Source: Schmidtea polychroa (taxonomy: Eukaryota). Taken from it: a stretch of 64,000 bases of DNA. This document shows, piece after piece, positions 18,607 to 40,023 of this stretch. The position numbers were made by a program, and so were the translations under genes. Within the stretch, counting starts at the first letter, position 1. Each line of letters begins with the position of its first letter. The notes beneath the pieces were generated by a model that worked only from the letters and a program-made list of their open reading frames with translations, was not told the DNA's origin and did not search any database. The DNA is taken from positions 19,284,001 to 19,348,000 of the forward strand of contig CM097885.1 in assembly GCA_044892525.1 (NCBI GenBank), written 5' to 3'.

Positions 18607-19026
18607 TGCTCGAAGTGAGGCGGGATAGCCGGAATATCATCCCGGCATTGATTATGTAGGCGGAATTGCATCCCGGCACTTCATTTCATATAATCTATAG
18701 GTTTATCCCGGTACTTATTTCATTTTATAGGCACACAAATACTGCAATTAAGGTCACACATAGTACATCCATATATGTATGTATATATATATTCTTTATT
18801 CTCTATTCTCTATTCAATTAAGAATTTCCCAAGCAGCAGTAATGGATAGGTAGGTATATTCTGAAACTTATGATTAAATGGGTGGACACCCCCCCCCAAA
18901 AAAAAATTTGTTGGACACCCCCCAAAGTTTTGAAAAACACCCCCAACTGAAAATTTCTGCATAAAAGCCTGGAATCCCGGGTGCCACAGCATGCCTATCC
19001 CGGCACATATTTTGTTCCACTTCGAG

Positions 19027-19031
<5 letters not shown>
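18604..19031. mobile_element. MITE (CAGTG termini, hAT-like) in a (TA)n tract inside a pPolB intron
   Basis: TIRs CAGTGCTCGAAGTG / CACTTCGAGCACT and subterminal ATCCCGGCA repeats. TSD is obscured by (TA)n. Confidence 0.8.
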
Positions 19032-19113
<82 letters not shown>

Positions 19114-19119
19114 AATGTA

Positions 19120-20260
<1,141 letters not shown>

Positions 20261-21677
20261 GAATGATATAAATATATATTACCACTTACATTATATTTCA
20301 TTACTCTTTCTCTGTGGTGTTTTATGTCATCATAATGCAATACGGCCAGTATGCTATATAAAAAGCAGAATTGATCGTTATTTTGAACATTAACTAAAGC
20401 CTGACAGTTTTTCAGGTAATTTGGCGTTTTAATATAACTTGAACCTAAGTAAATATCTTGATTTATATATATAATAATGTAAATAAACTTACCAGATACA
20501 TGTATTATGTCTGATAATTTAGTTAAAATCATAGTAACTTCTAATATTTTATGAATTCTCCACCCACTACTTTGTTGAGTGTATTTCTCCAACTTTTCTT
20601 TTAATTTTTCAATTCCATCATTAATAAATGAAGATGACATTGTAATTGCTTTATTCGACAAACACCATTTTTTAATTTCACCATCCTCTTTGATAAACTC
20701 TGCACAAAGTCCAAATTGGATTTTTACTGTCCCCATTCGTTGAATATGATCTTCTATTTCTTTGATGAGACAATCTTGAACAACAATGTCAGGAGAATTA
20801 ATTGCAGATACATCGCTTGTCAATTCAACACGAGAACCATTTAAGTCAGACTCATGACGTGGACACAATTGTATGTTAGAGTCTCCATTTCCATAAAATA
20901 TTGACTTTCGATTTGTGGTGCCAGAGTTTTGTCTAACTATATTTATAATTAATATTAAACAACTTAAATAACATAACTTGTAACATATTCTTTAATCTGC
21001 TTAGGATCGTATGATGTATTCATTTTCGATTGTACTATAAAAAATTAATAATTGTTAATAGTAGAAAGAGTATTACTTTTAGTGATCATCCTGCTCTTCG
21101 TTTCTTCGAATCTTCTAAGATGGTCTCCGTGTTGTCGTACAAACATTAACCACCTACCTGGTGATATAATGAGACATTCCGGACATATGTAACCCGATAA
21201 GGTAGAGTCATTTATCTTGAAATATGATGATGTAACTGATTTACAGTTCTCCACATCTTCATGACTTTCGGCAATACAAAATTTATATAAACTGCATCCG
21301 TTCACTAAAAGAAAATAATCATTAATATTAGATAGATAATAAAAAATTATTCACTTATATAAGTTAAATTAAAAGTTAGAGATAAAATTTAATTTTCTAT
21401 AAAATGGATTGATCTAGAGTTTAAAATGTTGTATTATTTTATTACTTTGTTGCAATATTTTTATAATCTTATAACAATTTCCTTAAATATTTTACATCTG
21501 GTGAAATATTTCCGAAATATGTTATTACTTTGTTGTAATTTACTGAAAGACTTCACAATTTATTACAATATTCTTTTTAATTTGTTGTCCGTCTTCGAAA
21601 TAATGTATTGATTTGTCCCAATTAACATCATTATTTTATTACTTTGTTGCAATATTTATATTAATAATATTAATAAT

Positions 21678-21758
<81 letters not shown>

Positions 21759-21775
21759 TGTGGTGATAATAATAA

Positions 21776-22876
21776 TGTTAGGGATAGGCCTGGAGCCTTG
21801 TTGATTAAATAAATAAAAATTACTAAAATTAGAAATAGTATAAATAAAAATTACTGAAAATAAAAGATAGGTTTTATTAATTACTATTAATAGAATTAAG
21901 TAATATATAGGAATATTTGATAATACTATTACTATATATAGTAATTATAAAATTGCTATTAAGATAATAAATAATTAAAATGTAATATAAATACTGGTTC
22001 AAAACGAGAACCAAGGGACGATAAACATTGAGAAGAATTTGGACGATAAAATTGACGATAACTTGCGGACAAGAAAACTGGCAAGAAAGTGGGAAAAACA
22101 ATTGAAACAATAATTTAGAAAATTATTATTATTTTTAAAGAAAACGTGATTAAAGAATCACTGTTGTTGATCAAAATTAAGTTAAGAAGTTCAACAGTTG
22201 TCTACAATAAAGCAAACGTGATTAAAGAATCACTGTGATCATCAAACAACCAGACGACAATCCAACTCAAATTCCAGATCAATTTCAAACTTGAAAAGTG
22301 ACTATAAATTGTCAAACCGAACAAACAAGAAGGAGAGCGAGAATAATTCTGGAGAAAAATTTGAACAGGTTCGTGAAACGAAAAACAGAAAAGGAGCCAT
22401 TAATCTAGAAGGTAAAAGAAGTTCAGTATTTGAGTTGTGTAAGGATAAATTATTATCCTTGTGAAGTGAGATAGTTAAAGTAAAGCGAACACAAAGCACA
22501 GACAGCGGCTTTCGTGTTACCTGGTAGCCCCAAAATCAGCCCTCTTGCTTTACCATCATCTTTTCAATTTATTTAGCGATCGTTGTACTACAAAGGAGCC
22601 ATCGATTTCTTGCAGGCTGTGGTAAACAGTAAGGATTAATAAATCCGTTTTCTTGTACTCTTTGTACATATATTATAAAGTTCATTTGTAAATTATAAAA
22701 TACATTTTTATAAAAAGAGAAAGGAGTTTTTGTTTTTAATTCAGTGATTTGAACATTTAGACGCGCAACCACATTTGAATATAACTTATTTATATTTATT
22801 TTTGTTTATTTATCTTAATTAATTTATTGGAGTCATTTGTGTTAAGATCTGTAGTCCCCGTTTTTCGATTTTAACA
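21776..22876 (+). repeat. 5' LTR
   Basis: 1101 bp. About 8 differences from 35002-36101, counted by eye. Confidence 0.97.
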
Positions 22877-22879
22877 TTT

Positions 22880-22897
22880 TGGTGAGCCCGACGTGAT
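22880..22897 (+). promoter_or_regulatory. Primer binding site, tRNA-Trp
   Basis: TGGTGAGCCCGACGTGAT starts 3 nt after the LTR. It is one mismatch from the complement of the canonical eukaryotic tRNA-Trp 3' end (TGGTGACCCCGACGTGAT). Confidence 0.85.
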
Positions 22898-23013
22898 CTA
22901 ATTTACGGGGGAATAAGAATTTTATTTATAAAAGGCAAACATCTTTTTGAATCATTGAGTTAAGAAATAGAAGGGTAATAAATTTAAGACCAGGTAATAG
23001 AAACCAGCAAATA

Positions 23014-24060
23014 ATGGCAGAGATAAATAATTTACAAAATTTAAACGAGAATAATCTACAAAATAATAATATGCCAGTAGCTCAACTACCAGTGGTAGAT
23101 TTTATGAGATACCCAACAATTCCGATTAAACCATTTAGTGGAAACCCAGGGGAGTTTCCGGAATTTATGTCCGAATATTTTCAGTTAGCCAGAGCATTAG
23201 GATTCCCGGAACCGGTAATGATTTTGAGATTACCTTTATATTTAAAAGGGATGGCGCGGGAAATATATAACGATGTTATAATAGCCGAGCATCCAGTTGA
23301 ATGGAATGTATTGCGATTAGCGTTACAAAACAGAATATTACGGGGGGATGCAACTAGAGTGCTGAGACAACAGTTTTAAAACAGGCGACAAAATTCGGGT
23401 GAGCATGTTGGGGAATTTTCATATCAAATAATGATGTTGACAGAGAGAGCATTTGGCAATAGGGCAGCCTGGAATGATGCGACTAGAGCATTAGTGAAAG
23501 ATCAGTTTTGGACAGGGTTATCGTCTGCAATGAGAAATGCACTCAGTTTACACATAGGAGATAATTTAAAGGAATTAACTCGCAAAGCGTGTTTAATTGA
23601 AAGTAGCATTGAAAAGTCAAATAAATTTGCAATTAGTAGCAATAAGGCAGACATTGAGTGTTTCAATTGTCATAAAAAGGGACATATGTCAAAAGATTGT
23701 AAAAGTAGGAATAATTCTCCAGGGGACAAATTATGTACCAAGTGTGGGAGAAATAATCATGTGGCATCAAACTGTAGAATTTCGGACTTAAATTGTGAGA
23801 AATGCAAGCGCAAGGGACATGTAGCGTCAGTTTGTAAAGCTAGTTTTGGGGGGAATAATTCAAATAATAACAGTAATAGAAATAGAAGCCCCGATATGAA
23901 TTTTCGTGGTAATAATAATAATAATAACTTTCAGAGTAGAAATAATAATTTTATAATAATATTAAAAGGGATGAAGTAAATTCGGGGGGTAAAATTAAAT
24001 GTCATAAGTGTGGAAAATTTGGTCATATTATGCGTTCATGTCCACAGAATCAGTTATCTA
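23014..24060 (+). pseudogene. Gag with four CCHC zinc knuckles
   Basis: IKPFSGNP..F and RRQNSGEHVGEF capsid motifs. Knuckles CFNCHKKGH, CTKCGRNNH, CEKCKRKGH, CHKCGKFGH. In-frame TAA at 23377 and a -1 shift near 23950 into the frame of the 24030 ORF. Confidence 0.9.
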
Positions 24061-27000
24061 ATAACAATGGTAGTGGCAACAATGGTAATAATCGATCAAA
24101 GCAGACAACGTTTGCAGTGAATTCAGATCACAAATTAACGTATTTGCAGCAGCTTGAATTAGAAATTCAAGAAGAGAGAAACAGGTTAGCGAGGCTAACA
24201 ACAAATGAAACTGATGAGTACGATGAAAATGAAGGTGTTTATATGACGTCAGCCAGAAAAAGTCGAAATAAAAATAATTATGTAGAACTTGAAGTGTTGA
24301 TGCTTCAAGAGAGTCCAAGGGAGGACAAAGAGGAAAAGACTATGGTCATGGAACCAGAGGTCTGTGAGGGTTTACAGGTTTCACACAGGAAAAATCTAGT
24401 GGCTGTGACCATGGAGCCAGAAGCCAACAGAGAAATAGAAGGTTTACCGGTTTCACCAGTTAAAAATCGTAATGGTATGGACATGGATCCAGTAGCCAAT
24501 GTAATTGTTTCAACAGACGTTTTGGAAAAAAGATGGGCTTCGGTCATTGAGCCGGAAGTTCTTATAGCCACATCATCCATGCGAGGTGAGTGTGGTAGTG
24601 AACCAATAAAGGTTAGAGAAGCATCGAAAGAGGAAAGAAATCCCATCGATGACTGTAGAAAAGTATTATTACGCAAGAGCGTATGGCAAAGAGAAATGAG
24701 ACAGAAATTAGAAAATATTCGTTTAAACCCCGTTAAGGAGGATGAGGTTGACAAAACAATGGAAATCATATCAGAATTAGACAGAAATGAGGAATATTAT
24801 CCAGAATTGAGAGAAATTCTGAGAAATATCGGCCTAAATTGGAAACAAAGAGAGAATCTGGAAGATTCTACAATTTTTGTATCTTTCCCAAAGGGTTGTT
24901 TTCGTAGATATACAATTAACCCAAGTGAAAAAGTAGAAGCCTTGGCAAAGAGAGTTCCTGTGGTAAAACCTCAATTGAGATGCAAACTATATTTATTGGG
25001 AGAAAGATTATTAGAGGGAGAAACCCTGTTAGATTGTGGTATATTACCAGGGAAAAGTATTGTCATAAAAGCAAAGTTTCACAAGGAAACTGTTACAGTA
25101 GTGGACTTGGATAATGTCCTTACAATAAGCGAGATGGAAATTGATCAGTTAAATCAAATATCAGCCGTACCACATAGATTGGGAATCGAGCTGATGAAAA
25201 ACCCAAGAGATGGGGAAACCATTAAGATGATAATGGATTGGATACTGGAGTTGCGAATCCCAGTAGATACTCTTAGAGAGATAATGCCATTGGTGGTGCC
25301 TTTAGTAAAAGAGACATCACAATTTCAGACACAAACAAAGATGCTGTTGATTAAAAATGGACATGCTATCAGGCATTTGGAAGGTAGACAAGGTCCAGTG
25401 ACTTTAAAGATCAGGATACCCAGGAGAGGACACCTGATACAACAATTCTCATGTTATCATAGGGTAAAGAAACTGAGAAAAAGGATATCAGAAATATTAA
25501 AAGAGTCATTCCTAATAATGATACTTGGTTGTCAGGTGGATGACGACGAATTTCTAGTAGATGTTGGATGTTTTCCCAATGAGGAAACAGTCGTATTAAT
25601 ATTACTGGTAGAGTTTCCAGAGCATCAATGGGTAACATTGAGATTGCCAGATAATGCTGAAATGGAGGATGAAACAGTACATCCTGAGCAAAAACAAGTA
25701 GACGGGAATACTCATCAGGAACCCGTAACTACAGTAGATTTAGATGAAAAAATAGATAAGTATCTCAAGGAACTCGATAACACTGAAGACGAGTTGGTCG
25801 AAATATCTCCTACAGAGGAAGATAATGAAGTACAATTAAATCGAGATGAAACAAACATCGGAGCTAGTACATCACGACAAGTCGAGCCACCAAGAAAAAG
25901 GGTGAGACCGAAGTTAGTAGAGAATAAAAAGAAAAAGGAGAGAAGGGGTAGACCGAGGAAAAGTCAAATGAACCCGCCTCCAAGAGAACTTCTAAAACCA
26001 GTTACAATACAAAATGTAACTAAGCAGGCTTTAGCGGGGATAGCTAGCCAAATTGATAAAAGTGTTGGAGACGCTAGTGATAAAACGGAAACATGGAAAA
26101 GATTAAATCAAATCTTACGACTGATTAAGCTCCATTGGCAAATCAAGAAAGATAAAAGTGTTAATGTTGACAAAATTGCAGAAAAAGTCAAGAAAGCTAT
26201 GGAAAAGATTCCAGGAAGCACTACAGAACAGGAGATGTTCGAAATAGCAGGACAATTCATAGATGAAGGCCTGACGAAAGGGAAAATGATAACGATTCTA
26301 GCATTAATGTTTAAAAATGCATTGAGCATAATTAAAGATGATTCGTCGAAAATTCCAGCAGCTATAGACAAGCTGACTGATATCATCGAAGTGAATTTCG
26401 GAACATGGATGACGGAGCACAAGTTTTGGGATATAAAAGAAACGAAAGGAAAATATGAATTGAATGAAGAGTTGTTGACAGAAAATATTTCAAGTAGTCC
26501 ACGGGGAACAGGTGGATTTACTAGTTGGATGATGATGTTGTTGGTAATGATGAGAATATTGCGACAGACAAATTCCCTCACGGCATATGATTGTAGTGAA
26601 CCAATACTATCGCGAATCTACTCATTAGTAGACACAGTGGAATGCAAGGAAGCATATCCAGATAAAGTTGCAAAAAGGGAAGACGTAGAATATCATGTTT
26701 ATCAGCAAACAGAGTTTTACAGAACCAGAGTGAGGGAATATCGAATACAGAGAGCGACGTTCGAATATTACTGTGGATCGAATAGTTATTCAGCATTTTT
26801 AGGAGCTAAACTCATTTCTATACCGTTAATCATCCCACCAGAGGATTGTGTAAATGCTTTTCGGTCAAAAACAGTTAAAATAGATCATGAGGTAACGATT
26901 ACCGCAGAAGAAGGGAAAAAGTTGGGTATAACTATTACCCGGGGAGGACCGATAGCATATTCTGGTTCTTGTCATGGTAGAAAGAAAGTAAGAGGTTCTA

Positions 27001-27083
27001 ATGTAGTAAGCTATGTGGTAACAGTCGAGGATTACACGGTAGAGCTGATCGAGTACGAAGGAACTTTCGAAGTATCCACGTGA
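24030..27083 (+). CDS. Polyprotein segment: two ubiquitin-like domains, Bcl-2-like domain, signal peptide, N-terminal part of glycoprotein
   Basis: UBL1 ~24870-25080 and UBL2 ~25398-25610. BH1/BH2-like motifs at 26232-26432. Hydrophobic segment 26526-26576, then LTAYDC. Same frame as the 27087 ORF, separated by one TGA. Confidence 0.75.
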   Translation: MRSCPQNQLSNNNGSGNNGNNRSKQTTFAVNSDHKLTYLQQLELEIQEERNRLARLTTNETDEYDENEGVYMTSARKSRNKNNYVELEVLMLQESPREDKEEKTMVMEPEVCEGLQVSHRKNLVAVTMEPEANREIEGLPVSPVKNRNGMDMDPVANVIVSTDVLEKRWASVIEPEVLIATSSMRGECGSEPIKVREASKEERNPIDDCRKVLLRKSVWQREMRQKLENIRLNPVKEDEVDKTMEIISELDRNEEYYPELREILRNIGLNWKQRENLEDSTIFVSFPKGCFRRYTINPSEKVEALAKRVPVVKPQLRCKLYLLGERLLEGETLLDCGILPGKSIVIKAKFHKETVTVVDLDNVLTISEMEIDQLNQISAVPHRLGIELMKNPRDGETIKMIMDWILELRIPVDTLREIMPLVVPLVKETSQFQTQTKMLLIKNGHAIRHLEGRQGPVTLKIRIPRRGHLIQQFSCYHRVKKLRKRISEILKESFLIMILGCQVDDDEFLVDVGCFPNEETVVLILLVEFPEHQWVTLRLPDNAEMEDETVHPEQKQVDGNTHQEPVTTVDLDEKIDKYLKELDNTEDELVEISPTEEDNEVQLNRDETNIGASTSRQVEPPRKRVRPKLVENKKKKERRGRPRKSQMNPPPRELLKPVTIQNVTKQALAGIASQIDKSVGDASDKTETWKRLNQILRLIKLHWQIKKDKSVNVDKIAEKVKKAMEKIPGSTTEQEMFEIAGQFIDEGLTKGKMITILALMFKNALSIIKDDSSKIPAAIDKLTDIIEVNFGTWMTEHKFWDIKETKGKYELNEELLTENISSSPRGTGGFTSWMMMLLVMMRILRQTNSLTAYDCSEPILSRIYSLVDTVECKEAYPDKVAKREDVEYHVYQQTEFYRTRVREYRIQRATFEYYCGSNSYSAFLGAKLISIPLIIPPEDCVNAFRSKTVKIDHEVTITAEEGKKLGITITRGGPIAYSGSCHGRKKVRGSNVVSYVVTVEDYTVELIEYEGTFEVST

Positions 27084-27086
27084 AAA

Positions 27087-30000
27087 ATGATGTCTCATCC
27101 AGAATGCAACGTGAAATATGGTTATTGTAAAACCAGTTTGGCAGAATTAACGTATCAATCAATGAGAGATTTTTGTGATTTGGGATACCTGGAAAAGGTA
27201 GTATTTTCAAGGTTAGATGGAAAAGGTTTTACGTCTCAGGACTCACAACAAAGTGGTTGGGGAGACAAGATAGCTCACAAAACGAAAAAGGAAGTAGTAC
27301 CGGAGAAAAGCACAACAGTAGTATTAGTCTCCAAGGACCCCACAGATGTAATTCGTTTAGTCAGAAAGAAACAGACAGCAAAATGTGGTGTACCAATATT
27401 TGAAACAAATTACAAGGGAATATACTTAGCATACAAATATGTTCCAGCAGCAGAATCATTACATCTATCAGATATTAAAATAGCCAAGTATATCAATAAT
27501 AAGATTGATTTCTTGTATCATGATTTACAGAAACAATTATTAGATGTGTATCAGGAAGTGATCCTGAACGACTGTCGTTTAAATCGGGAAATAATACGGA
27601 ATAGATTAGCAATATCTATAGCTAATCCTGATTTAATAATGCCAATGTTGACAGAGGAAGGAACATTTGGTAGAATTTTGGGTGAAGCAATTTATAGCTA
27701 TCAGTGCAAAGCAATAGAGGTAGAAATCACCAAATATGATCGATGTACATTGGAGTTACCGGTGAAATATAAAGGAAAATTGAGATTCCTGATGCCAGTA
27801 TCACATCAGTTATTAAAGGAGGATACCTCACCATTAACAGCAATTTGCAATCCAGCAATGTCACCATTATACAAAATTAACAATATTTGGATTTCATTGC
27901 CAGACAGAAAGCCGCCTTCAAAACCAGTCGAAGTGCTCCAAGTGACAAAGTTAGAAACTAAAATGGAGTTTCAACCATTAAACGAGATGTCAAAAGCAGG
28001 AGTATATACTCCGGAAGATATTGAAGAAGCTCGGAGAGCAATTGTATTTCCCCAAATCAGAGATCGGGGAGTGACAGAAATAATAACAAGAATTTATCAA
28101 TCATATGATGGAAAACCGGACTATAACTTGTTATTTGGACCAGAACATTACAAACAAGCTGCATCAAATGTAATACGGAAAATCTGGGGTAGATTTACAA
28201 GCTTTGGCATTTTTGTAGCAGGGTGTTCAGGTATATATGCAATAGTGATGATATTGAAAATAATCATATCACAATTATTTTCCACCTATAGTATCTTCAA
28301 GATCGGGGGATGGTCTTGGAAGTTGCTACTAGGAATGTGTCCAGTTTGTGCAGATTTTGCAGTATTTCATCATCATAATAAAGAGATTAAGAGAATGAAG
28401 AGACAAACTATAAAGAAGCATGAGTTAATAATGTATGAACCTAGTCATCGAGACGATGACAATTCTGACGAGGGAGGTAACCTAGAGGGCTATGAGACCT
28501 CAGACAACATTTCAATAAAACCAGACAACAAAAAACCGAAATTTCAAAATTTTGAAAATAGTACTTTACAACAGTACCCCGTTAAAGCAAAAAGCAGGAA
28601 TCGGCAGGAGTGGCCTGTGAATTATTTGTCACCATACGAGGGTAGAAAAAAGATAATACCAGATCGAGTCGAAGAGGAAATGCTAAAGAGGCTCGAGTTT
28701 AGAACAAATACAGATATATTACCATCTACCTCATACCCAACGTATAAAATGAAGTTCGAGACAATGCCACCCTTGGGTACATCAGTATTGGAGATGGTAC
28801 CTAAATATCCATTTAGCACATTGGAACGGCTAAAGGAAGAGTATAAAGATGAAATAAAATCAGAAAATGACAAAGATAGTGATGATCAACAAAAGTTCAG
28901 AGATAATATTAGAGGAATTTCAACAATACTAATGGTCAATATGGGTAAAAAGACTCATAAACCTACGATCAAATTAAAAGTTAACAGGCATACGGTACAT
29001 GCCATTATTGATTCAGGATCAGATTTGACATTGATAGAAGCAAATTTATTAAACGAAAAAGAATTACAAGCAATAGTGCCGACATTAACTGTTGCATCGG
29101 GAGCAAATGGACAACCTATCAATGTTATCGGAACATTAGATTGCGAATTAAGGTTGTGTGATCAAACATTTAGACACGATATCAAGGTCACTAGACAATG
29201 TATGGCAGAATGTATCGTGGGAATGGATATATTGAAAAAGTTAAAAGATATCGTATTCGATTGTGCATCAGGTGAATTAGTGAAAATGACGGGTAGAAAA
29301 CGGAAAACCTACAGTGTGGATGTAGTGTTTTTGGATAGAACGGTGACAATACCACCGAGGACCGAAACAGTTTGTTTCGTAGCAACACACCAAGAGGTGG
29401 AAGGAGATGTTATTTTCGAACCGAGTGAGCAGTTTGTAAATAGGTATAAAACGCCTATGGTGCAAAACTTGGCAACAGTACGGGGAGGAAGTATCCCGAT
29501 TAGATTAACGAATCTAGCGAGCAAATCAATAAGATTATACCCAGAGACTAGAGTGGGTAAAGTGATACAACTTTTTAACATGCAGAAAGAGTCTGAATCG
29601 ATATTATCAGTAGAAGAGGATGAACGAGATCCTGATATTGAATATTACGACGCACCGAGCTGCGATAGCAAAGCTTTATCTAGAAAAGAAAATATCAGAG
29701 TCAATCAATTATTACGTAAATATGACCAAGTTTTCGCAAAGCACGAATATGACCTAGGGCAAGTTAATATTTTAGAACATGAAATTAAATTAACAGAAAA
29801 TAAACCGATAAAAATTCGCCCGTACAGAATACCTCAAAGTATACAAGGGTCCGTTGATAAACAAATTAAATTAATGCAAAAATATAATATAATGAGACCC
29901 AGTAAATCTCCATATTCCTCACCTTTGGTGGTTGTAGCTAAAAGAGACGGCTCAGTAAGATTATGCAATGATTATAGGAAATTAAATGAACAAACAGTTA

Positions 30001-32495
30001 GTTATAATCACCCGCTACCTTTGCTAGAGTACATTTATGATAAAATGAAAAATTCAAAGTTGTTTACTGTGAAGGATGCACAGAAAGGTTTTTATCAAAT
30101 AAAGATGAGCGAAGACTCAATTCCTATGACAGGATTTTCTACAAGTAGTAATCATTTCGAATACTTAGTAATGCCGTTTGGATTAAAAGGAGCCCCTCCA
30201 ACTTTTCAGAGGGCAATGAATATTATGTTGATGGATGCACATCACGCAATGGTTTATATAGACGATATTATCATCTTCTCGGAAGATTTAGATAAACATT
30301 TGGAACATCTAGAAGACATTTTCAAAAGATTGATTATGGCAAACCTGAAAGTAAAGCCAAGCAAATGCAAATGGGCAGAATCGGAAGTGATTTACGTGGG
30401 GCATGTAATATCACACGATTGCGTAAGACCAGATCCGGCTAACACGGATAAAGTAAAGAATTTCCCACAACCAGTGAATGTAAAACAAATCAAAGGATTT
30501 TTAGGGTTGACGGGATATTATCGGAAATTTATACGAAATTTTTCAGCAATAGCTTTTCCTCTAACTACCTTAGAAAAGAAAGGTATAAAATTTTTATGGG
30601 GAGAAGATCAGCAACAGGCATTTGACAAGTTAAAAGATGCACTATGCAAACCACCAATTCTACGATTTCCAGATTTTAAAAGACAATACATGGTGATGAC
30701 TGATGCATGCATGAGAGGCATAGGTGCAGTTTTGGGACAGAAAGACGAAATTGGGGATGAGTACACAGTAGCATATGCAAGTCGTGGATTGAAGCCACAC
30801 GAGAAAAGTTATGCAGTAATAGAATTGGAAGCATTAACGCTAGTGTTTGCAGTGGAAAAATTTAGTCATTACCTATGGGGCAGAAAGGTAATTTTCTATA
30901 CAGATCATAGACCATTGCAATGGCTGTTAAAACATAGAGACGAGGCATCAAAGTTAGTAAGATGGGCATTGAGATTACAGCCATATAATATCAAAATTGT
31001 ATATCGTAAAGGTAAAGCTAATGGTAATGCAGATGCATTATCACGAATGGAGCAAGAGCCTGAGTTAGAAGATATAAAGGAAGGAAGATTAGAAGGAACA
31101 ATCTTCATGCTAACAAGAGAAGCTAACACTTTGAGCGATTTAGTAGAAGCACAGAAAAATGATGACGAAATTAATATGATCAGACAAGCTATAGAAGCAA
31201 AGGCCATACCAAACGAATTTCAGAAATATTGGGAGAAACATAAAGATAAATTCATATTGGAAGAAGGTCTAATCAAATACGTTGAATCAAGGGATAATGT
31301 AATATTAGTGCCGAAGAAATACGGAGAATCACTATTATTACAATACCACGATGGAGCACTGGGAGGACATCTCTCAGCTAGACATACACTGTCAAGATTG
31401 AAAATGAAATACCTTTGGCCAGATATGAAAGACGATGTTAAAAAGTGGTGCCAATCGTGTAAAATATGTATAACCAGAATGAACACAGGCAGGAAACCAC
31501 ATGTTCCATTAAAACCAATGCCAGTACCGTCCTCGCCAATGGAGATGACTGCTATGGACGTACTAGGGCCGTTTAAAGAATCAAAGATGGGAAATAAATT
31601 CATCATAGTATTTTGCGACTACTTAACGAAGTGGCCCGAAGCATTCTTAATTCCGAATCATAAGGCAGACACAATTGCCAGAATCTTTGTAGAACAAATT
31701 GTATTCAGATATGGTGTTCCAACAAAATTACTTACCGACAGAGGAAAGGATTTCATGAGTAATCTGTTAAAGAGTATAAATGACTACTTCGGTATTTTAA
31801 AGTTAAATACCTCACCATACCACCCACAGACGGATGGATTGGTAGAAAGGTTCAATGGAACCTTGGCAAACATGTTATCATCATACGTAAACTCAGGTCA
31901 GACGGACTGGGATGTACACATACCATCTTGTTTGTTTGCGTATAGAAATGCTGTTCATTCAGTAACAGGAGAAACACCTTTCTATCTGATGTATTTGAGG
32001 CATAGCAAGATGCCAGCGGATCTTATATTTTACCCGAAAGCTTCACAGAATTGCGATGAGGGAAATTACTTATTCGAGATGAGAGAGAGAATGCAAGAAG
32101 CCTGGGAGAAAGCAGGTTTGAACATTCGTTATAACCAAGAATCAATGAAGGAATATCATGATCGCAAGGCAAAGGATCATGGATTTTTGGTAGGAGATTA
32201 TGTCATGTTAGAGGGACATTACAACAAAAAAGGCTTATCTCCAAAATTAATGAGAAATTACAAAGGGCCGTATCAAATTTTGAAAGTCACAGAAACCAAT
32301 TTAATCTTACAGTTAGCGGCAAACAGAAAAGCAGAACCGATAATGGTTCATGCAAACAGATGTAAAAAGATAGCCCCACCAGAAAAGGAGAAACCAAAAT
32401 CAGAAATTGATGAATTCGAAATAGATAAGAAATCGAAAAAGAAAACGTTAGAATCATATAAAAGTATCCTAAAGGGACAACCAGAACGATATTAG
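27087..32495 (+). CDS. pol: Polyprotein segment: glycoprotein C-terminal part and TM, aspartic protease, RT, RNase H, integrase
   Basis: Cys-rich ectodomain, TM ~28200-28370, IIDSGS (29010), YIDD (30255), TDACMRGIGAVL, HH-CC plus D,D35E and GPY/F integrase motifs. Uninterrupted. Confidence 0.95.
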   Translation: MMSHPECNVKYGYCKTSLAELTYQSMRDFCDLGYLEKVVFSRLDGKGFTSQDSQQSGWGDKIAHKTKKEVVPEKSTTVVLVSKDPTDVIRLVRKKQTAKCGVPIFETNYKGIYLAYKYVPAAESLHLSDIKIAKYINNKIDFLYHDLQKQLLDVYQEVILNDCRLNREIIRNRLAISIANPDLIMPMLTEEGTFGRILGEAIYSYQCKAIEVEITKYDRCTLELPVKYKGKLRFLMPVSHQLLKEDTSPLTAICNPAMSPLYKINNIWISLPDRKPPSKPVEVLQVTKLETKMEFQPLNEMSKAGVYTPEDIEEARRAIVFPQIRDRGVTEIITRIYQSYDGKPDYNLLFGPEHYKQAASNVIRKIWGRFTSFGIFVAGCSGIYAIVMILKIIISQLFSTYSIFKIGGWSWKLLLGMCPVCADFAVFHHHNKEIKRMKRQTIKKHELIMYEPSHRDDDNSDEGGNLEGYETSDNISIKPDNKKPKFQNFENSTLQQYPVKAKSRNRQEWPVNYLSPYEGRKKIIPDRVEEEMLKRLEFRTNTDILPSTSYPTYKMKFETMPPLGTSVLEMVPKYPFSTLERLKEEYKDEIKSENDKDSDDQQKFRDNIRGISTILMVNMGKKTHKPTIKLKVNRHTVHAIIDSGSDLTLIEANLLNEKELQAIVPTLTVASGANGQPINVIGTLDCELRLCDQTFRHDIKVTRQCMAECIVGMDILKKLKDIVFDCASGELVKMTGRKRKTYSVDVVFLDRTVTIPPRTETVCFVATHQEVEGDVIFEPSEQFVNRYKTPMVQNLATVRGGSIPIRLTNLASKSIRLYPETRVGKVIQLFNMQKESESILSVEEDERDPDIEYYDAPSCDSKALSRKENIRVNQLLRKYDQVFAKHEYDLGQVNILEHEIKLTENKPIKIRPYRIPQSIQGSVDKQIKLMQKYNIMRPSKSPYSSPLVVVAKRDGSVRLCNDYRKLNEQTVSYNHPLPLLEYIYDKMKNSKLFTVKDAQKGFYQIKMSEDSIPMTGFSTSSNHFEYLVMPFGLKGAPPTFQRAMNIMLMDAHHAMVYIDDIIIFSEDLDKHLEHLEDIFKRLIMANLKVKPSKCKWAESEVIYVGHVISHDCVRPDPANTDKVKNFPQPVNVKQIKGFLGLTGYYRKFIRNFSAIAFPLTTLEKKGIKFLWGEDQQQAFDKLKDALCKPPILRFPDFKRQYMVMTDACMRGIGAVLGQKDEIGDEYTVAYASRGLKPHEKSYAVIELEALTLVFAVEKFSHYLWGRKVIFYTDHRPLQWLLKHRDEASKLVRWALRLQPYNIKIVYRKGKANGNADALSRMEQEPELEDIKEGRLEGTIFMLTREANTLSDLVEAQKNDDEINMIRQAIEAKAIPNEFQKYWEKHKDKFILEEGLIKYVESRDNVILVPKKYGESLLLQYHDGALGGHLSARHTLSRLKMKYLWPDMKDDVKKWCQSCKICITRMNTGRKPHVPLKPMPVPSSPMEMTAMDVLGPFKESKMGNKFIIVFCDYLTKWPEAFLIPNHKADTIARIFVEQIVFRYGVPTKLLTDRGKDFMSNLLKSINDYFGILKLNTSPYHPQTDGLVERFNGTLANMLSSYVNSGQTDWDVHIPSCLFAYRNAVHSVTGETPFYLMYLRHSKMPADLIFYPKASQNCDEGNYLFEMRERMQEAWEKAGLNIRYNQESMKEYHDRKAKDHGFLVGDYVMLEGHYNKKGLSPKLMRNYKGPYQILKVTETNLILQLAANRKAEPIMVHANRCKKIAPPEKEKPKSEIDEFEIDKKSKKKTLESYKSILKGQPERY

Positions 32496-32769
32496 CCACC
32501 CTATGGATGTTTAGATTAAACATACGGGATATTCGTTATTGGGAAAATATTTACGAAACCGAGGTATAAGGGGAAAGTCTCACCATATACTAGGAAGTGT
32601 AAATATATATAGCTATTTATTTTATATGTTATTTATATTAGTATGTAGACTAATGTGGGCTCAAATGAGCATCGGTAAAATCAGACATCAGCGTATGTCG
32701 ACTTTGGTTACCCTGCGAGGGTCTATCACGAAAGTGATAAAAGCTGTTAATTATTTTATTTTTAGAAAA

Positions 32770-34767
32770 ATGAATTATAACAGAGAATCAAAGCCGCCAG
32801 TCAAAGCAAATCGACGACACCCATTGGCAACGTACAATTCCCAAACTCGAGTCGAAACTGAAGTGTATAGCACCTATAAAGAAGAGTATGTATATCGGTT
32901 CATCGGAACCACGGTAGCAGCAAAGATGAATCACCTCACCTCAAACTATTGGTATTATCCCAGGAGAGTGGATATTCCAAACGACTTCAAATTCCCAGGA
33001 GGGCCTCGAAGGCAAATGATGGTAACGGTTATAAATAACCAAGGTAGATTAAAATTGGCGGAACTATGTAGAGAGTATGGTTCATGTCCGAAAGTAGAAA
33101 ACATTTGGATCCATGCGATCAATAGGCCATTTACTGTGTTTATGGCGGGTTTAGAGCTACCTGTTGAATTAGAAAGACAGTGTACTCTGGAGATATACCA
33201 CGCTGATGGACGAGAACGGAATATTATGATCCAGGCAGCGGTGGTGGACACCATAATCGTAGTGGAAATCTTAGACTTCAGGAAACCATACTCTATAGTT
33301 AGCAAAAACGAGCCAACTTGGATTTATAATGTAAATGAAGCTGATATACAGCAATGTTAATCATTTGTGAGGAAGAAGTTAACCAAAGCCGAGGAGGACG
33401 AAGATACAATTTTCATATTGGCAGGTTTTGCCAAATCCCGAATCGAATTGAAGGAGACAATTATCCAAATCGCAATTATGGATATGAGAGGAAATAATTT
33501 ATTGAGTGCGGTAGTGACTCCCAGAAACCCTGTGAAACACTACCAAACGCACCAATACAAGTTAAAGGAACCTGATATCAGAGGAAACCTAGACAAAGAC
33601 GATTGTTATCATCTGATAAGAAAGATCTGTGATAAGAAAATACTTGTAGGTATTTTAGTTAAAGATCTGATCTCGGTAGCCAATCTACCAGTGCAGCGAA
33701 TATTGGGTATTCGTGATCTTTCTGCAAATAAACTATTGGAAACCAGAGGGGTCCCAAAGATTCATGGTCATTACAGATTGGGATTCTTGACAAAGACTTT
33801 CCTACGTACGGTTCCCTGAGAATCAAGGAATTTAGTGGTCACCAATGAGGCACTGGCAATACGTGCTGTTTATTTACATATCAGAAACGAATGGTTAGAC
33901 CATATCACGATACCCCAGGAGGAATTCATTTCTGCAACTACAGCAGCAATAGTTGAGCAGGAAATGACGCAAAAGAGGAGATTACCCGAGCAACCATCTA
34001 CATCAGAACAACCCCAGCCTAAGAGAAAATCACCTGTGGATCTACCACCGCCTCCAGCTATATCTATTGGAGAAGAAGATGAATATGAAACATGTGCTAG
34101 TGAAATGGAGACAGCGAAATCACCTAAACAATAATCGGGAGCTGCCTATCAGCCAAAGGATAAATCGGATAGTGCGGTCAGAAAAGAAAATCCAGAAGGA
34201 GGCAAGGTGAAAAAGATGTTAAAGAAAATGTTACCCATATAAAGAGACAAGTCGAAGTTAAAGTTGAAGAAAGTTGTTAAACCGTCGGAAGGAACGACAA
34301 AAGAGACACCCAGCAGTTTGGAAGATAAGAATAATAAACCTCAAAAGATATTCAGCGAACCAGATGATGACATTATGGAAGTTGCCTTTCAACCTCCAGT
34401 TAAGGAGATGCAGGAAGCAATAAAGGTTAAATCTGAACCTGTGGTTAGACAGAAAATGTTCAAGATTGCCAAGGAGAATATCATCAAGAAACCAGTTTCG
34501 GTTGATGTGGACGGTTTCGAACCAATGTGGTACAAACGTCTGGATAGTAAATGGAAACCCAGAGCGAAGGAGTATGACTGACAACCAGTCACGAGAATGG
34601 CAGTCAATAATAATCAAAAATATGATGTGTATGACGTAGACGGGATCCCTTACGTAGTATCTACAGTCATACTAACTAGTGCTCTGGATGGTAAACCCCT
34701 GGCAGTGAGTTTTGAGCCAGAAGTCTTACAGAAGAGAAAAAAGAAGTTGTTGCAGCAATACGTCTGA
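32770..34767 (+). pseudogene. Accessory ORF2 (~665 codons, 5 in-frame stops) containing a degenerate REX4/ISG20-like exonuclease fold
   Basis: ORFs 32539, 33367, 33835 and 34264 are all in frame 1. Region ~33400-33900 reads IAIMDMRGNNLLSAVVTPRNPVKHYQT...KKILVG...IRDLS...EALAIRAVY. A splice-acceptor-like ttttag precedes ATG 32770. Confidence 0.6.
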
Positions 34768-34989
34768 GAGCGTTGCCACCCAACACGTGTCGTCAAATTC
34801 AAATGTGTACAAAATGACTTAACTATTATGATTTGTGTTATTGTGTTTTGACATTCATTATTTGTGATCTGAAAGATTTATTTCTGTGTTTTGTCTTATT
34901 TGATAATTTTTATGTTTTATTGTAATACTGTTTACCAATTGCCTTTCTTTGGTCTTGGTTTTGTCTTGTTTTCGAGACGAAAATCTTTT

Positions 34990-35001
34990 AGGGGTAAGAC
35001 T
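34990..35001 (+). promoter_or_regulatory. Polypurine tract
   Basis: AGGGGTAAGACT lies immediately before the 3' LTR. Confidence 0.65.
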
Positions 35002-36100
35002 TGTTAGGGATAGGCCTGGAGCCTTGTTGATTAAATAAATAAAAATTACTAAAATTAGAAATAGTATAAATAAAAATTACTGAAAATAAAAGATAGGTTT
35101 TATTAATTACTATTAATAGAATTAAGTAATATATAGGAATATTTGATAATACTATTACTATATATAGTAATTATAAAATTGCTATTAAGATAATAAATAA
35201 TTAAAATGTAATATAAATACTGGTTCAAAACGAGAACCAAGGAACGATAAACATTGAGAAGAATTTGGACGATAAAATTGACGATAACTTGCGGACAAGA
35301 AAACTGGCAAGAAAGTGGGAAAACAATTGAAACAATAATTTAGAAAATTATTATTATTTTTAAAGAAAACGTGATTAAAGAATTACTGTTGTTGATCAAA
35401 ATTAAGTTAAGAAGTTCAACAGTTGTCTACAATAAAGCAAACGTGATTAAAGAATCACTGTGATCATCAAACAACCAGACAAAAATCCAACTCAAATTCC
35501 AGATCAATTTCAAACTTGAAAAGTGACTATAAATTGTCAAACCGAACAAACAAGAAGGAGAGCGAGAATAATTCTGGAGAAAAATTTGAACAGGTTCGTG
35601 AAACGAAAAACAGAAAAGGAGCCATTAATCTAGAAGGTAAAAGAAGTTCAGTATTTGAGTTGTGTAAGGATAAATTATTATCCTTGTGAAGTGAGATAGT
35701 TAAAATAAAGCGAACACAAAGCACAGACAGCGGCTTTCGTGTTACCTGGTAGCCCCAAAATCAGCCCTCTTGCTTTACCATCATCTTTTCAATTTATTTA
35801 GCGATCGTTGTACTACAAAGGAGCCATCGATTTCTTGCAGGCTGTGGTAAACAGTAAGGATTAATAAATCCGTTTTCTTGTACTCTTTGTACATATATTA
35901 TAAAGTTCATTTGTAAATTATAACATACATTTTTATAAAAAGAGAAAGGAGTTTTTGTTTTTAATTCAGTGATTTGAACATTTAGACGCGCAACCACATT
36001 TGAATATAACTTATTTATATTTATTTTTGTTTATTTATCTTAATTAATTTATTGGAGTCATTTGTGTTAAGATCTGTAGTCCCCGTTTTTCGATCTTAAC

Positions 36101-36101
<1 letters not shown>
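35002..36101 (+). repeat. 3' LTR
   Basis: 1100 bp, TGTTA...TAACA. Confidence 0.97.
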
Positions 36102-36181
<80 letters not shown>

Positions 36182-36249
36182 TATAATAATAATAATAATA
36201 AATAATAATTGTATCATAACTATTGTAGCATAAACTATCCAGTTTTTAT

Positions 36250-36629
36250 TTTAATTAATCATTTGTTCATAAGTCAAATCTCCAATCAAAAATTTTTTTT
36301 CCAAATCTAAAATCTTGATGGACGAGCCAATTGCAGCACATAACCAATATCTGTTTGGTGATAAGATAAGTTCATTGATAATATCACCTCTTTCTAAAGT
36401 GTATAAATGTCTTCCTTCAAATAAATCCAATAAAATTAAATATATCTAACATTAATGCCATAACATCCCTTGACATAACAACATCACTTTCATATCCATC
36501 CCAAATAATCAAAGATTTTTCCCTTAATGCAGAAATAAGAGTGTTTGGATAAATTGGGTTAGTTGCAATCTGTGTAATAGGTCCATCATGACCAGTAAGT
36601 GATCCCCTCAAAGTCAATTGTTCCATCAT
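36250..36629 (-). pseudogene. RACK1: Internally deleted RACK1 (GNB2L1) fragment
   Basis: MEQLTLRGSLTGHDGPITQIATNP (WD1), then SDVVMS (WD2 piece). In another frame [42 protein letters not shown] (WD6). Confidence 0.88.
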
Positions 36630-38705: not shown

Positions 38706-38735
38706 ATATAAAATGCGCAATTTGCTATATTAAAA

Positions 38736-40007: not shown

Positions 40008-40023
40008 TTTTTAACATTTTAAA

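What the first reader, a model, noticed from the sequence alone, without database searches (positions are those of the whole stretch)
23014..32495. Ty3/gypsy element with one giant polyprotein: Gag-UBL-UBL-Bcl2-Env-Pol
Seen: three lesions (TAA 23377, -1 shift ~23950, TGA 27081) are all that separate four ORFs from a single ~3160-codon frame. In it, a signal peptide, ectodomain and TM anchor sit between Gag and protease. Known: retroviral and errantiviral env normally lies downstream of pol as a separately spliced ORF. Inferred: the precursor threads the ER membrane like a flavivirus polyprotein, with Gag and accessory domains cytosolic, Env luminal, and PR-RT-IN as the cytoplasmic tail of Env. 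With the host-modulating domains, this looks like an enveloped, possibly infectious retroelement of unusual architecture.
Basis: partly seen in the sequence, partly recalled or inferred. Interest (0 to 1): 0.93.

Follow-up and report, generated by a model that had tools for sequence, protein, structure and literature searches.

The report
Broken copy of planarian-type Gag-Env-Pol retroelement
This is a damaged copy of a 14-kb virus-like jumping gene whose intact copies encode capsid, ubiquitin-like, Bcl-2-like, envelope and replication proteins in one reading frame, a striking design that was already published for planarian flatworm elements.

Summary
Four ORFs (22951-23379, 23380-23979, 23949-27083, 27084-32495) are separated only by an in-frame TAA, a one-base frame change and an in-frame TGA.

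All three lesions are private to this copy. At both stop sites, 29 of 29 other genomic copies carry a sense codon. At the frame change, 27 of 29 differ in length by 1 modulo 3. Two of five fetched copies are open for more than 3,240 codons.

The domain calls also hold:
- four CCHC knuckles;
- two ubiquitin-like folds;
- a Bcl-2-like domain;
- a class III viral fusion glycoprotein with signal-like and anchor segments (PF24664, E 1e-81);
- Ty3-type PR-RT-RH-IN.

The full element is 21776-36101, with 1,101-bp LTRs. This copy also has a ~928-nt deletion after pol.

The design is not new. Arkhipova & Yushenova 2019 described Gag-Ubl-BCL2-Env-PR-RT-RH-IN in one polyprotein in planarian Burro elements. 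Chary & Hayashi 2026 list GAG-ENV-POL elements in flatworms. The ER-threading topology is plausible but untested. Verdict: a new, defective member of a known kind, of low to moderate interest.

The parts
21776..22876 (+). 5' LTR (1,101 bp, TG...CA)
   Evidence: 99.27% identical to 35002-36101 over 1,101 nt; ends read
22880..22898 (+). primer-binding-site-like sequence starting TGG, 3 nt after the LTR
   Evidence: read; the matching tRNA was not identified
23014..23376 (+). Gag N-terminal part from the first ATG, ended by the in-frame TAA at 23377-23379 (private lesion)
   Evidence: 29 of 29 other copies have a sense codon at this site
23380..23979 (+). Gag C-terminal part with three CCHC zinc knuckles (23659-23835). 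The frame changes by one base within about 23940-23980 (private lesion).
   Evidence: zf-CCHC E 7.9e-11; 27 of 29 other copies differ in length by 1 modulo 3 over 23800-24100
24000..24041 (+). fourth CCHC zinc knuckle
   Evidence: zf-CCHC E 4.2e-4; coordinates
24867..25079 (+). ubiquitin-like domain 1
   Evidence: Pfam ubiquitin E 0.0025, below cut-off; polyubiquitin representative E 1.8e-5; AF2 beta-grasp matched to di-ubiquitin and ISG15
25125..25370 (+). helical linker conserved in relatives
   Evidence: helices 103-180 of the model; phmmer matches to relatives
25398..25616 (+). ubiquitin-like domain 2 (DDDE[FY]L[VI]D motif), the most conserved accessory module
   Evidence: relatives at E 1e-8 to 5e-21; pLDDT 86-95; Foldseek alignments of 252-287 columns span both UBLs
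26091..26441 (+). Bcl-2-like domain (BH1- and BH2-like region)
   Evidence: Pfam Bcl-2 E 0.016, below cut-off; family profile against PDB gives Bcl-xL at E 3.7e-4 and all 60 listed rows are Bcl-2 family; ESM Atlas nearest clusters are Bcl-2, E1B-19K and poxvirus Bcl-2 at score 0.88; Foldseek top 50 are all Bcl-2 family, but on a poor model
26514..26591 (+). internal signal-peptide-like segment (12-residue hydrophobic core)
   Evidence: a similar segment precedes Env in P0002 and P0003
26592..28193 (+). Env ectodomain, a class III-type viral fusion glycoprotein, interrupted by the in-frame TGA at 27081-27083 (private lesion)
   Evidence: PF24664 E 6.5e-15 and 1.3e-61 on the two halves, 1e-81 on an uninterrupted copy; 29 of 29 other copies have a sense codon at 27081
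28194..28280 (+). transmembrane anchor, followed by a Cys-rich membrane-proximal stretch (28305-28367) and a basic tail
   Evidence: Kyte-Doolittle 2.27 over 19 residues; coordinates
28956..29246 (+). retroviral-type aspartic protease (DSG at 29004-29024)
   Evidence: RVP E 1.1e-6, gag-asp_proteas E 5.8e-7
29937..30986 (+). reverse transcriptase and RNase H
   Evidence: RVT_1 E 1.4e-29, RT_RNaseH E 1.3e-32; Ty3 RT 4ol8 E 1.4e-84
31308..31856 (+). integrase (H2C2 zinc finger plus catalytic core)
   Evidence: Integrase_H2C2 E 3.9e-17, rve E 2e-7; Ty3 Gag-Pol 7q5b E 1.3e-106 across RT-IN
32491..32496 (+). junction of a ~928-nt deletion relative to sister copies; the pol frame stops here at 32493-32495
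   Evidence: alignment to four sister copies ends at 32491; the 3' part resumes 928 nt further on in three of them, L062-L064
32515..34581 (+). remnant of ORF-B, one frame with four stops here and no recognised family
   Evidence: the same frame is open for 775 codons in 13 of the 138 scored places
34990..35001 (+). polypurine-tract-like run just before the 3' LTR
   Evidence: read
35002..36101 (+). 3' LTR
   Evidence: ends read; both flanks are (AAT)n microsatellite

Best explanation
The window holds one complete but defective insertion (21776-36101) of a mid-sized Ty3/gypsy LTR retroelement. It belongs to the planarian 'Burro-like / GAG-ENV-POL errantivirus' kind and is present in hundreds of copies in this 781-Mb genome.

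Intact copies encode a single frame of more than 3,280 codons. Its order is Gag (four CCHC knuckles), UBL, helical linker, UBL, Bcl-2-like domain, signal-like segment, class III fusion glycoprotein, membrane anchor, basic tail, protease, RT, RNase H, integrase. A separate 775-codon frame (ORF-B) follows.

Shown: the frame is continuous in sister copies. The same order occurs in two distant relatives. All modules evolved under purifying selection.

Inferred (about 0.5):
- The genomic RNA is translated as one precursor.
- Gag and the accessory domains are made in the cytosol.
- The internal signal then targets the ribosome to the ER, and the Env ectodomain enters the lumen.
- The anchor stops transfer, so PR-RT-RH-IN stay cytosolic as the tail of Env.
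- The element's protease and host signal peptidase then cut the precursor.

Inferred from what is known of viruses (recalled, not tested):
- The Bcl-2-like domain delays death of the cell that expresses the element.
- The UBLs act in budding or protein turnover rather than as conjugatable ubiquitin, because neither ends in Gly-Gly.
For: Anatomy: the LTRs are 1,101 bp and 99.27% identical, with TG...CA ends, a PBS-like and a PPT-like site.

Private lesions: 29 of 29 other copies have sense codons at 23377 and at 27081, and 27 of 29 differ by 1 modulo 3 at the frame change. The frame is open over the equivalents of 22951-25750 in 18 of 29 copies and of 25000-29200 in 15 of 29. Two of five fetched copies are open over at least 3,242 and 3,281 codons.

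Copy number: 236 and 355 first-look candidates for the env and gag probes, with 40 scored for each, at 88-97% identity for the env probe and 95-97% for the gag probe apart from the window itself.

Deep conservation: two public proteins of 3,181 and 3,700 aa are 44% and 39% identical in Env. Both have CCHC, then Env, then PR-RT-RH-IN in one chain.

Selection: dN/dS between the window copy and L063 is 0.09-0.18 for Gag, 0.18 for the accessory region (804 codons), 0.05-0.15 for Env and 0.08 for PR-IN.

Domains: PF24664 at E 1e-81; UBL model pLDDT 77 with Foldseek di-ubiquitin and ISG15 hits at E 1.7e-9; Bcl-xL profile hit at E 3.7e-4; Ty3 Gag-Pol at E 1.3e-106.

Topology cues: a signal-like core before Env and a hydrophobic anchor after it in all three lineages. 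The anchor is weaker in P0002 (Kyte-Doolittle 1.53, against 2.27 and 2.31). Each ectodomain has 14 Cys.

Literature: the same design is published for Burro (PMC6431247) and for flatworm GAG-ENV-POL elements (PMC13524379).
Against: - No protein or RNA evidence exists for a single precursor or for its topology. The only runs that could be laid were assembled contigs of uncertain type, which cannot show transcripts or splicing.
- The Bcl-2 call rests on sub-threshold or modest scores, and the model is poor (pLDDT 48).
- The Env ectodomains are nearly free of N-glycosylation sequons: 0, 0 and 2 in 538-576 residues. This is odd for a luminal viral glycoprotein.
- Three consecutive Met codons open the signal core. 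Separate initiation on a subgenomic RNA therefore cannot be excluded.
- Burro's MATH, BIR, ankyrin and dUTPase motifs were not found here, and the element is 14.3 kb rather than over 30 kb. It is a relative of Burro, not a Burro copy.
- My match to the published Smed_errantivirus_4 Env was counted by eye only.
Confidence: 0.8

Rival explanations
1. Same element, different expression. Env, and perhaps Env-Pol, is translated from a spliced subgenomic RNA or by internal initiation at the Met cluster that opens the signal segment, as in ordinary retroviruses. The in-frame arrangement would then be tolerated rather than used for Env production.
For: Three consecutive Met codons start the hydrophobic core of the signal-like segment. 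Retroviral and Drosophila gypsy env are expressed from spliced RNA (established knowledge, recalled). Nothing I ran tests translation.
Against: PR-RT-RH-IN have no start of their own behind Env, so ribosomes must cross Env to make Pol. No stop separates the modules in three lineages that are only 39-44% identical in Env. No GT..AG joint appeared in the run guessed to be RNA, but those are contigs and cannot exclude splicing.
Confidence: 0.15
2. Env and the accessory domains are dead cargo. The family would spread only inside cells like a plain LTR retrotransposon, and the captured domains do nothing.
For: Most LTR retrotransposons need no envelope. No function was tested here. N-glycosylation sequons are almost absent from the ectodomain.
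Against: dN/dS is 0.05-0.15 for Env and 0.18 for the accessory region between two sub-lineages. The modules are retained in order, with 14 ectodomain cysteines, in relatives at 39-44% identity.
Confidence: 0.04
3. Artefact: the arrangement is a nested insertion or mis-assembly that merely joins an endogenous viral glycoprotein gene to a retrotransposon.
For: None beyond the general frequency of nested repeats in this genome. The window also holds Maverick/Polinton-like genes.
Against: Dozens of scored copies on four large contigs share the same junctions and frame. Independent public proteins show the same order.
Confidence: 0.01

Closest known systems
Burro / GYPSM1 giant gypsy-like LTR retrotransposons of Schmidtea mediterranea (Arkhipova & Yushenova 2019, PMC6431247, section 7 read in full; it cites Grohme et al. 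2018 and Jurka 2007, which I did not see)
   Same: One polyprotein with Gag and CCHC knuckles, a Ubi2/SUMO-like motif, BCL2, an Env that resembles mononegavirus fusion glycoproteins, then PR-RT-RH-IN. [quoted passage not shown]
   Different: Burro exceeds 30 kb, has a 4,873-aa ORF1 and carries MATH_TRAF_C, BIR, ankyrin and dUTPase motifs. This element is 14.3 kb, has two UBLs, and none of those extra motifs was detected.
Platyhelminth GAG-ENV-POL 'errantiviruses', Smed_errantivirus_1 to 6 (Chary & Hayashi, eLife 2026, PMC13524379; passages and supplementary files 1 and 2 seen)
   Same: Ty3/gypsy, ORF order GAG-ENV-POL, a class III ('HSV/gB-type') Env flanked by a signal peptide and a TM or by two TMs, and multi-copy in a planarian genome. 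The Env of Smed_errantivirus_4 is plainly homologous to this one.
   Different: Identity is about 70% over the first 60 aligned Env residues, counted by eye and not computed, so this looks like a different family. My term searches of that paper found no mention of ubiquitin, Bcl, polyprotein, in-frame or Burro.
Non-canonical nematode endogenous retroviruses (Sacco et al. 2022, J Gen Virol 103:1739; not held, known to me only through its title and its citation in PMC13524379)
   Same: [quoted passage not shown]
   Different: Different phylum. I could not check frames or accessory domains.
Mosquito BEL/Pao elements with Chuviridae-like glycoproteins (Dezordi et al. 2020, PMC7642597; search listing and abstract only)
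   Same: An LTR retroelement that captured a glycoprotein of a Monjiviricetes-type RNA virus.
   Different: A different retroelement family (BEL/Pao). I did not check where its env lies.
Flavivirus and pestivirus polyproteins (works like, not a member; recalled knowledge)
   Same: One precursor with internal signal and stop-transfer segments, so that some products face the ER lumen and others the cytosol.
   Different: These are RNA viruses with no reverse transcription. The topology of the present precursor is only inferred.
Viral Bcl-2 homologues of herpes-, pox- and adenoviruses (recalled knowledge)
   Same: A virus-borne Bcl-2-fold domain. The nearest ESM Atlas clusters include E1B-19K/Bcl-2 and poxvirus Bcl-2-like families.
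   Different: Here the domain sits inside a retroelement polyprotein. Its activity is untested.

Membership tests
Ty3/gypsy (Metaviridae) LTR retrotransposon | Long terminal repeats with TG...CA ends flanking the coding region | tested here: met
   1,101-bp LTRs, 99.27% identical; ends read
Ty3/gypsy (Metaviridae) LTR retrotransposon | Pol domain order PR-RT-RNase H-IN, with RT closest to Ty3/gypsy RTs | tested here: met
   Pfam order. The best PDB matches are Ty3 Gag-Pol 7q5b at E 1.3e-106 and Ty3 RT 4ol8 at E 1.4e-84, against about 1e-27 for gammaretroviral RT. No RT tree was built.
Ty3/gypsy (Metaviridae) LTR retrotransposon | Target-site duplication | tested here: inconclusive
   Both flanks are (AAT)n microsatellite, so a duplication cannot be told apart from the repeat
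Ty3/gypsy (Metaviridae) LTR retrotransposon | tRNA primer-binding site next to the 5' LTR | tested here: inconclusive
   A TGG-initiated 19-mer lies 3 nt after the LTR. The matching tRNA was not looked for.
GAG-ENV-POL env-carrying Ty3/gypsy elements (Chary & Hayashi 2026) | A class III (gB/G-like) fusion glycoprotein gene between gag and pol | tested here: met
   PF24664 at E 1e-81, lying between the CCHC knuckles and protease. No Env structure was predicted.
GAG-ENV-POL env-carrying Ty3/gypsy elements (Chary & Hayashi 2026) | Ectodomain flanked by a signal peptide or TM and by a TM | tested here: met
   Hydropathy only. No SignalP or DeepTMHMM was available.
Burro family proper | Giant size (over 30 kb) and ORF1 with MATH_TRAF_C, BIR, ankyrin and dUTPase motifs | tested here: not met
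   The element is 14.3 kb. None of these Pfam families appeared at E <= 0.01. The PR-RT spacer hits only RT parts in the PDB.
Burro family proper | UBL, BCL2 and Env in frame between Gag and PR | tested here: met
Ubiquitin-like (beta-grasp) fold | beta-beta-alpha-beta-beta...beta grasp fold, here twice | tested here: met
   AF2 model with pLDDT 77. Foldseek hits linear di- and tetra-ubiquitin, ISG15 and FAT10 at E 1.7e-9 and above, over 252-287 columns.
Ubiquitin-like (beta-grasp) fold | C-terminal Gly-Gly for conjugation or DUB cleavage | tested here: not met
   Neither UBL ends in GG in the translation
Bcl-2 family | Helical bundle with BH1 and BH2 motifs | tested here: inconclusive
   Single-sequence Pfam gives E 0.016, 16 bits against a cut-off of 31. 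The family profile hits Bcl-xL at E 3.7e-4 across BH1-BH2, and one relative has an 'ERGGW' BH2-like motif. The model is all-helical but has pLDDT 48, with Foldseek E 0.03-0.2.

The most novel reading that the evidence does not exclude
Intact members may be multi-pass retroviral polyproteins that carry two membrane modules in one frame. One is the class III fusogen between Gag and protease. The other is a second signal-ectodomain-anchor module fused directly behind integrase. This second module is seen complete and in frame in two distant relatives: P0002 has 8 N-glycosylation sequons there, and P0003 has a basic tail after the anchor. In this family's uninterrupted copies only its hydrophobic start was seen. 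If so, a receptor-binding or accessory envelope protein would sit at the canonical env position, as well as the fusogen at the non-canonical one. An orphan 775-codon ORF-B follows, in what I calculate to be the -1 frame. I found no description of this second module in the passages I read.
Probability: 0.2. Interest if true: 0.6.

Novelty: new member of a known kind. Interest (0 to 1): 0.3.

Why it matters
Elements of this kind show that a retrotransposon can build an enveloped-virus gene set, plus host-derived apoptosis and ubiquitin modules, into a single reading frame. That bears on how retroviruses acquire envelopes and on how one precursor can serve both cytosolic and luminal products.

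For this locus the value is modest. It confirms by copy-by-copy comparison that the published design also holds for a compact 14-kb family. It shows purifying selection on the accessory and Env modules. It also flags a possible second membrane module behind integrase, and an orphan ORF-B that has been amplified as a tandem array. It does not open a new category.

Tried and rejected
- **RNA evidence.** No RNA holder was listed. Four runs were laid, all assembled contigs of uncertain type. The run guessed to be RNA touched all 30 bins at low depth and showed no GT..AG joint. This says nothing firm about transcription or splicing.
- **3' module in sister copies.** About 390 nt between the known end of the giant frame and the start of ORF-B's frame in sister copies was therefore never seen. 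Whether the two frames overlap, and whether a frameshift site exists, is open.
- **Exonuclease idea.** I thought 33361-33816 looked like an ISG20/REX4-type exonuclease (recalled). Pfam found nothing at E <= 0.1, and the PDB search returned only an unrelated chance-level match. Rejected.
- **ORF-B.** No Pfam hit, no PDB hit, and no relatives among longer proteins. The ESM Atlas request did not complete.
- **Stand-alone viral relatives of Env.** Only 2 hits, both unnamed fragments, so no closest virus could be named beyond the Pfam family.
- **UBL2 profile against PDB.** No ubiquitin hit by sequence. The fold call rests on the model.
- **dUTPase between PR and RT, as in Burro.** Not found.
- **Papers not held.** Sacco et al. 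2022 and Grohme et al. 2018.
- **Earlier scan notes.** Nothing found.
- **Published sequences.** No Burro or Repbase sequence, and no supplement sequence, was put into any tool, so family identity with published elements was not computed.

Full report
**Observation.**
- The first two share a frame and are split by TAA at 23377-23379.
- The second and third overlap by 31 nt, in frames one base apart.
- The third and fourth share a frame and are split by TGA at 27081-27083.
- The first ATG is at 23014.

The region stands out from its 19-30% G+C surroundings. It is 33-38% G+C, with strong purine skew on the + strand.

**The whole element.** The coding core sits inside a complete LTR element.
- Direct repeats of 1,101 bp at 21776-22876 and 35002-36101 are 99.27% identical. 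They begin TG and end CA.
- A TGG-initiated 19-mer lies 3 nt after the 5' LTR. A purine-rich run abuts the 3' LTR.
- Both flanks are (AAT)n microsatellite, so no target-site duplication can be read.
- Downstream of pol there is a further frame, 32515-34581, with four stops in it.

**Are the lesions private?** The window's own genome has 781 Mb in 1,012 contigs, four of them very large. It holds many copies.
- A 1.2-kb env probe gave 236 first-look candidates, of which 40 were scored. Apart from the window itself they were 88-97% identical.
- A 1.1-kb gag probe gave 355 candidates, of which 40 were scored, at 95-97%.

I compared copies one by one and built no consensus.
- At the position of the TGA, 29 of 29 other copies have a sense codon.
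- At the position of the TAA, 29 of 29 have a sense codon.
- Over 23800-24100, 27 of 29 differ in length from the window by 1 modulo 3, and the other two by +2 and +6.
- One frame is open across the equivalent of 22951-25750 in 18 of 29 copies (my recount of the table). One frame is open across the equivalent of 25000-29200 in 15 of 29.

Two are open over everything fetched, 3,242 and 3,281 codons. One has a single break. One has several breaks. One aligns for only 3.6 kb.

Alignment of four sister copies to the window stops at 32491. The window's 3' part resumes 928 nt further along in three of them, L062-L064. This copy therefore has a ~928-nt deletion at the end of pol. Its 'pol stop' at 32493 is a product of that deletion.

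In sister copies the giant frame continues past integrase into a hydrophobic, signal-like stretch.

**Domains.** I used the unaltered translation of one uninterrupted sister copy (P0001) and the window's own pieces.

Pfam gives:
- CCHC zinc knuckles;
- PF24664, 'Monjiviricetes_fusion, viral fusion glycoprotein', at E 1e-81. On the two halves in the window it scores E 6.5e-15 and 1.3e-61, covering profile positions 6-187 and 240-624;
- then aspartic protease, RVT_1, RNase H, the integrase zinc finger and the integrase core.

RT through IN matches yeast Ty3 Gag-Pol (7q5b) at E 1.3e-106 and Ty3 RT at E 1.4e-84. That is far better than retroviral RTs, at about 1e-27. The Ty3/gypsy label therefore holds.

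A 12-residue hydrophobic core precedes the ectodomain, within 26514-26591. A 19-residue anchor follows it (28194-28280), then a Cys-rich stretch and a basic tail.

**UBLs.** Single-sequence evidence is weak but consistent:
- Pfam ubiquitin at E 0.0025, below the cut-off;
- PDB polyubiquitin at E 0.2;
- a polyubiquitin representative at E 1.8e-5 among 1.84 billion proteins.

An AlphaFold2 model of 24837-25649-equivalent residues, built with nine relatives, has mean pLDDT 77 and shows two beta-grasp units. Foldseek aligns 252-287 columns of it to linear di- and tetra-ubiquitin, ISG15 and FAT10, with the best E 1.7e-9.

Both UBLs are real. Neither ends in Gly-Gly. UBL2, with the helices before it, is the accessory module most conserved among relatives.

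**Bcl-2-like domain.** Four independent but modest lines agree:
- Pfam Bcl-2 at E 0.016, 16 bits against a cut-off of 31.
- A five-sequence family profile hits Bcl-xL in the PDB at E 3.7e-4. All 60 listed rows are Bcl-xL, BOK or Bcl-2, aligned over BH1-BH2.
- The nearest ESM Atlas clusters are Bcl-2, E1B-19K and poxvirus Bcl-2-like, at score 0.88 with about 190 shared features.
- The AF2 model is all-helical but poor (pLDDT 48). Even so, its 50 best Foldseek rows are all BAX, Bcl-xL, Bcl-2, BOK, BAK or Mcl-1, at E 0.03-0.2.

I accept 'Bcl-2-like' as probable, not proven.

**Is the arrangement maintained?**
- Two public proteins, 3,181 and 3,700 aa, are only 44% and 39% identical in Env. They show the same order in one chain: CCHC, Env, PR, RT, RH, IN.
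- Between the window copy and sister copy L063, dN/dS is 0.09-0.18 for Gag, 0.18 for the accessory region (804 codons), 0.05-0.15 for Env and 0.08 for PR-IN. Most of their ~4% divergence therefore arose on replicating lineages with every module under constraint.
- All three lineages keep a signal-like core before Env, a hydrophobic anchor after it (weaker in P0002) and 14 ectodomain cysteines.

**Mechanism.** What is shown: ribosomes must traverse Env to reach PR-RT-RH-IN, since Pol has no start of its own and no stop intervenes. What is inferred is in the best explanation: a precursor whose Gag, UBL and Bcl-2-like parts are cytosolic, whose Env ectodomain is translocated through the internal signal, and whose Pol remains cytosolic behind the anchor.

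Two points give pause:
- The near absence of N-glycosylation sequons in the ectodomains: 0, 0 and 2.
- The Met triplet at the start of the signal core, which would allow separate initiation.

The public-run data could not settle expression.

**Comparison with what is known.**

Arkhipova & Yushenova 2019 (PMC6431247; section 7 read in full) describe the Burro elements of the planarian Schmidtea mediterranea.
- They carry a 4,873-aa ORF1 polyprotein with Gag and three CCHC knuckles, MATH_TRAF_C, a Ubi2/SUMO-like motif and BCL-2.
- Next comes an env region that hits fusion glycoproteins of arthropod and fish mononegaviruses, then PR, dUTPase, RT, RH and IN.
- They suggest that the apoptosis and ubiquitin domains meddle with host systems.

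Chary & Hayashi (eLife 2026, preprint 2023; PMC13524379; passages and supplements seen) report GAG-ENV-POL order with class III ('HSV/gB-type') Env in Nematoda, Bryozoa and Platyhelminthes.
- They list six S. mediterranea elements.
- The Env of their Smed_errantivirus_4 is clearly homologous to this one. I counted about 70% identity by eye over the first 60 aligned residues. I did not compute it, because supplement sequences were not put into tools.
- They cite Sacco et al. 2022 for nematode elements. That paper is not held, so I know only its title.

The present element is thus a compact (14.3-kb) relative of these. It has two UBLs and lacks Burro's MATH, BIR, ankyrin and dUTPase motifs. The similarity suggests that the host is a dugesiid planarian. 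I did not try to establish this.

**What may be new.**
- In both distant relatives, integrase is followed in frame by a second signal-like segment, about 270 residues, a strong anchor and a short tail. P0002 has 8 N-glycosylation sequons in that stretch.
- In this family the start of such a module follows integrase.
- The next frame, ORF-B, is separate. It is open for 775 codons in 13 of the 138 scored places, including the two copies whose giant frames were uninterrupted. By my arithmetic it lies in the -1 frame relative to pol. I could not see about 390 nt between the two frames.
- ORF-B has no recognisable family.
- ORF-B has been amplified as a ~2.87-kb-period tandem array on another contig.

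These points are leads, not findings.

**Verdict.** This is a defective new member of a known kind.

Noticed in passing
window 16574-18289 (-), 38712-39749 (+), 40015-41505 (+), 59572-61998 (-): Maverick/Polinton-like genes surround the element. They are protein-primed DNA polymerase B (PF03175, E 3e-19 and 1e-11), a double jelly-roll capsid-like domain (PF21738, E 2e-20) and an rve integrase with a phospholipase-A2-like domain.
   Followed up: partly
own genome, contig C3, about 106.49-107.22 Mb (not in the window); homologous to window 32515-33357: The element's orphan ORF-B occurs in a head-to-tail array with a period of about 2.87 kb. More than 80 of the scored units are 87-93% identical at protein level, and most have open frames of 374-375 codons. 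A piece of the element has become a tandem repeat, or a gene cluster.
   Followed up: no
own genome, contig C2, about 100.87-100.91 Mb: Three copies of the element lie 14,218 bp apart on the same strand. This fits a tandem array of elements sharing LTRs.
   Followed up: no
window 26592-28193 and the Env ectodomains of P0001, P0002, P0003: The ectodomains keep 14 cysteines but have only 0, 0 and 2 N-x-S/T sequons in 538-576 residues. From composition I estimate about 10 would be expected in total. This is unexplained for a supposed luminal glycoprotein.
   Followed up: partly
window about 26520-26560: Three consecutive Met codons open the hydrophobic core of the internal signal-like segment. 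They could serve as a separate initiation site for Env.
   Followed up: no
proteins P0004 and P0011 (public predicted proteins): Fragments of related elements are fused in gene models to host domains. P0004 joins the Bcl-2-like and Env pieces to an ion-transport domain. P0011 joins a Tam41/Mmp37 enzyme to the Bcl-2-like piece. These may be annotation chimeras or exaptations.
   Followed up: no
window 19003-19190, 20116-20343, 19205-19820, 21599-21775, 36102-36262: The element sits among simple repeats. These are 8-10-nt-period arrays, a 124-nt-period tandem repeat of four units, and the (AAT)n microsatellite the element inserted into.
   Followed up: no
relative P0006; window 24867-25616: One short public relative (P0006) also has both UBL1-like and UBL2-like units, whereas P0008 and P0014 seem to have one. 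The UBL number varies among related elements.
   Followed up: partly
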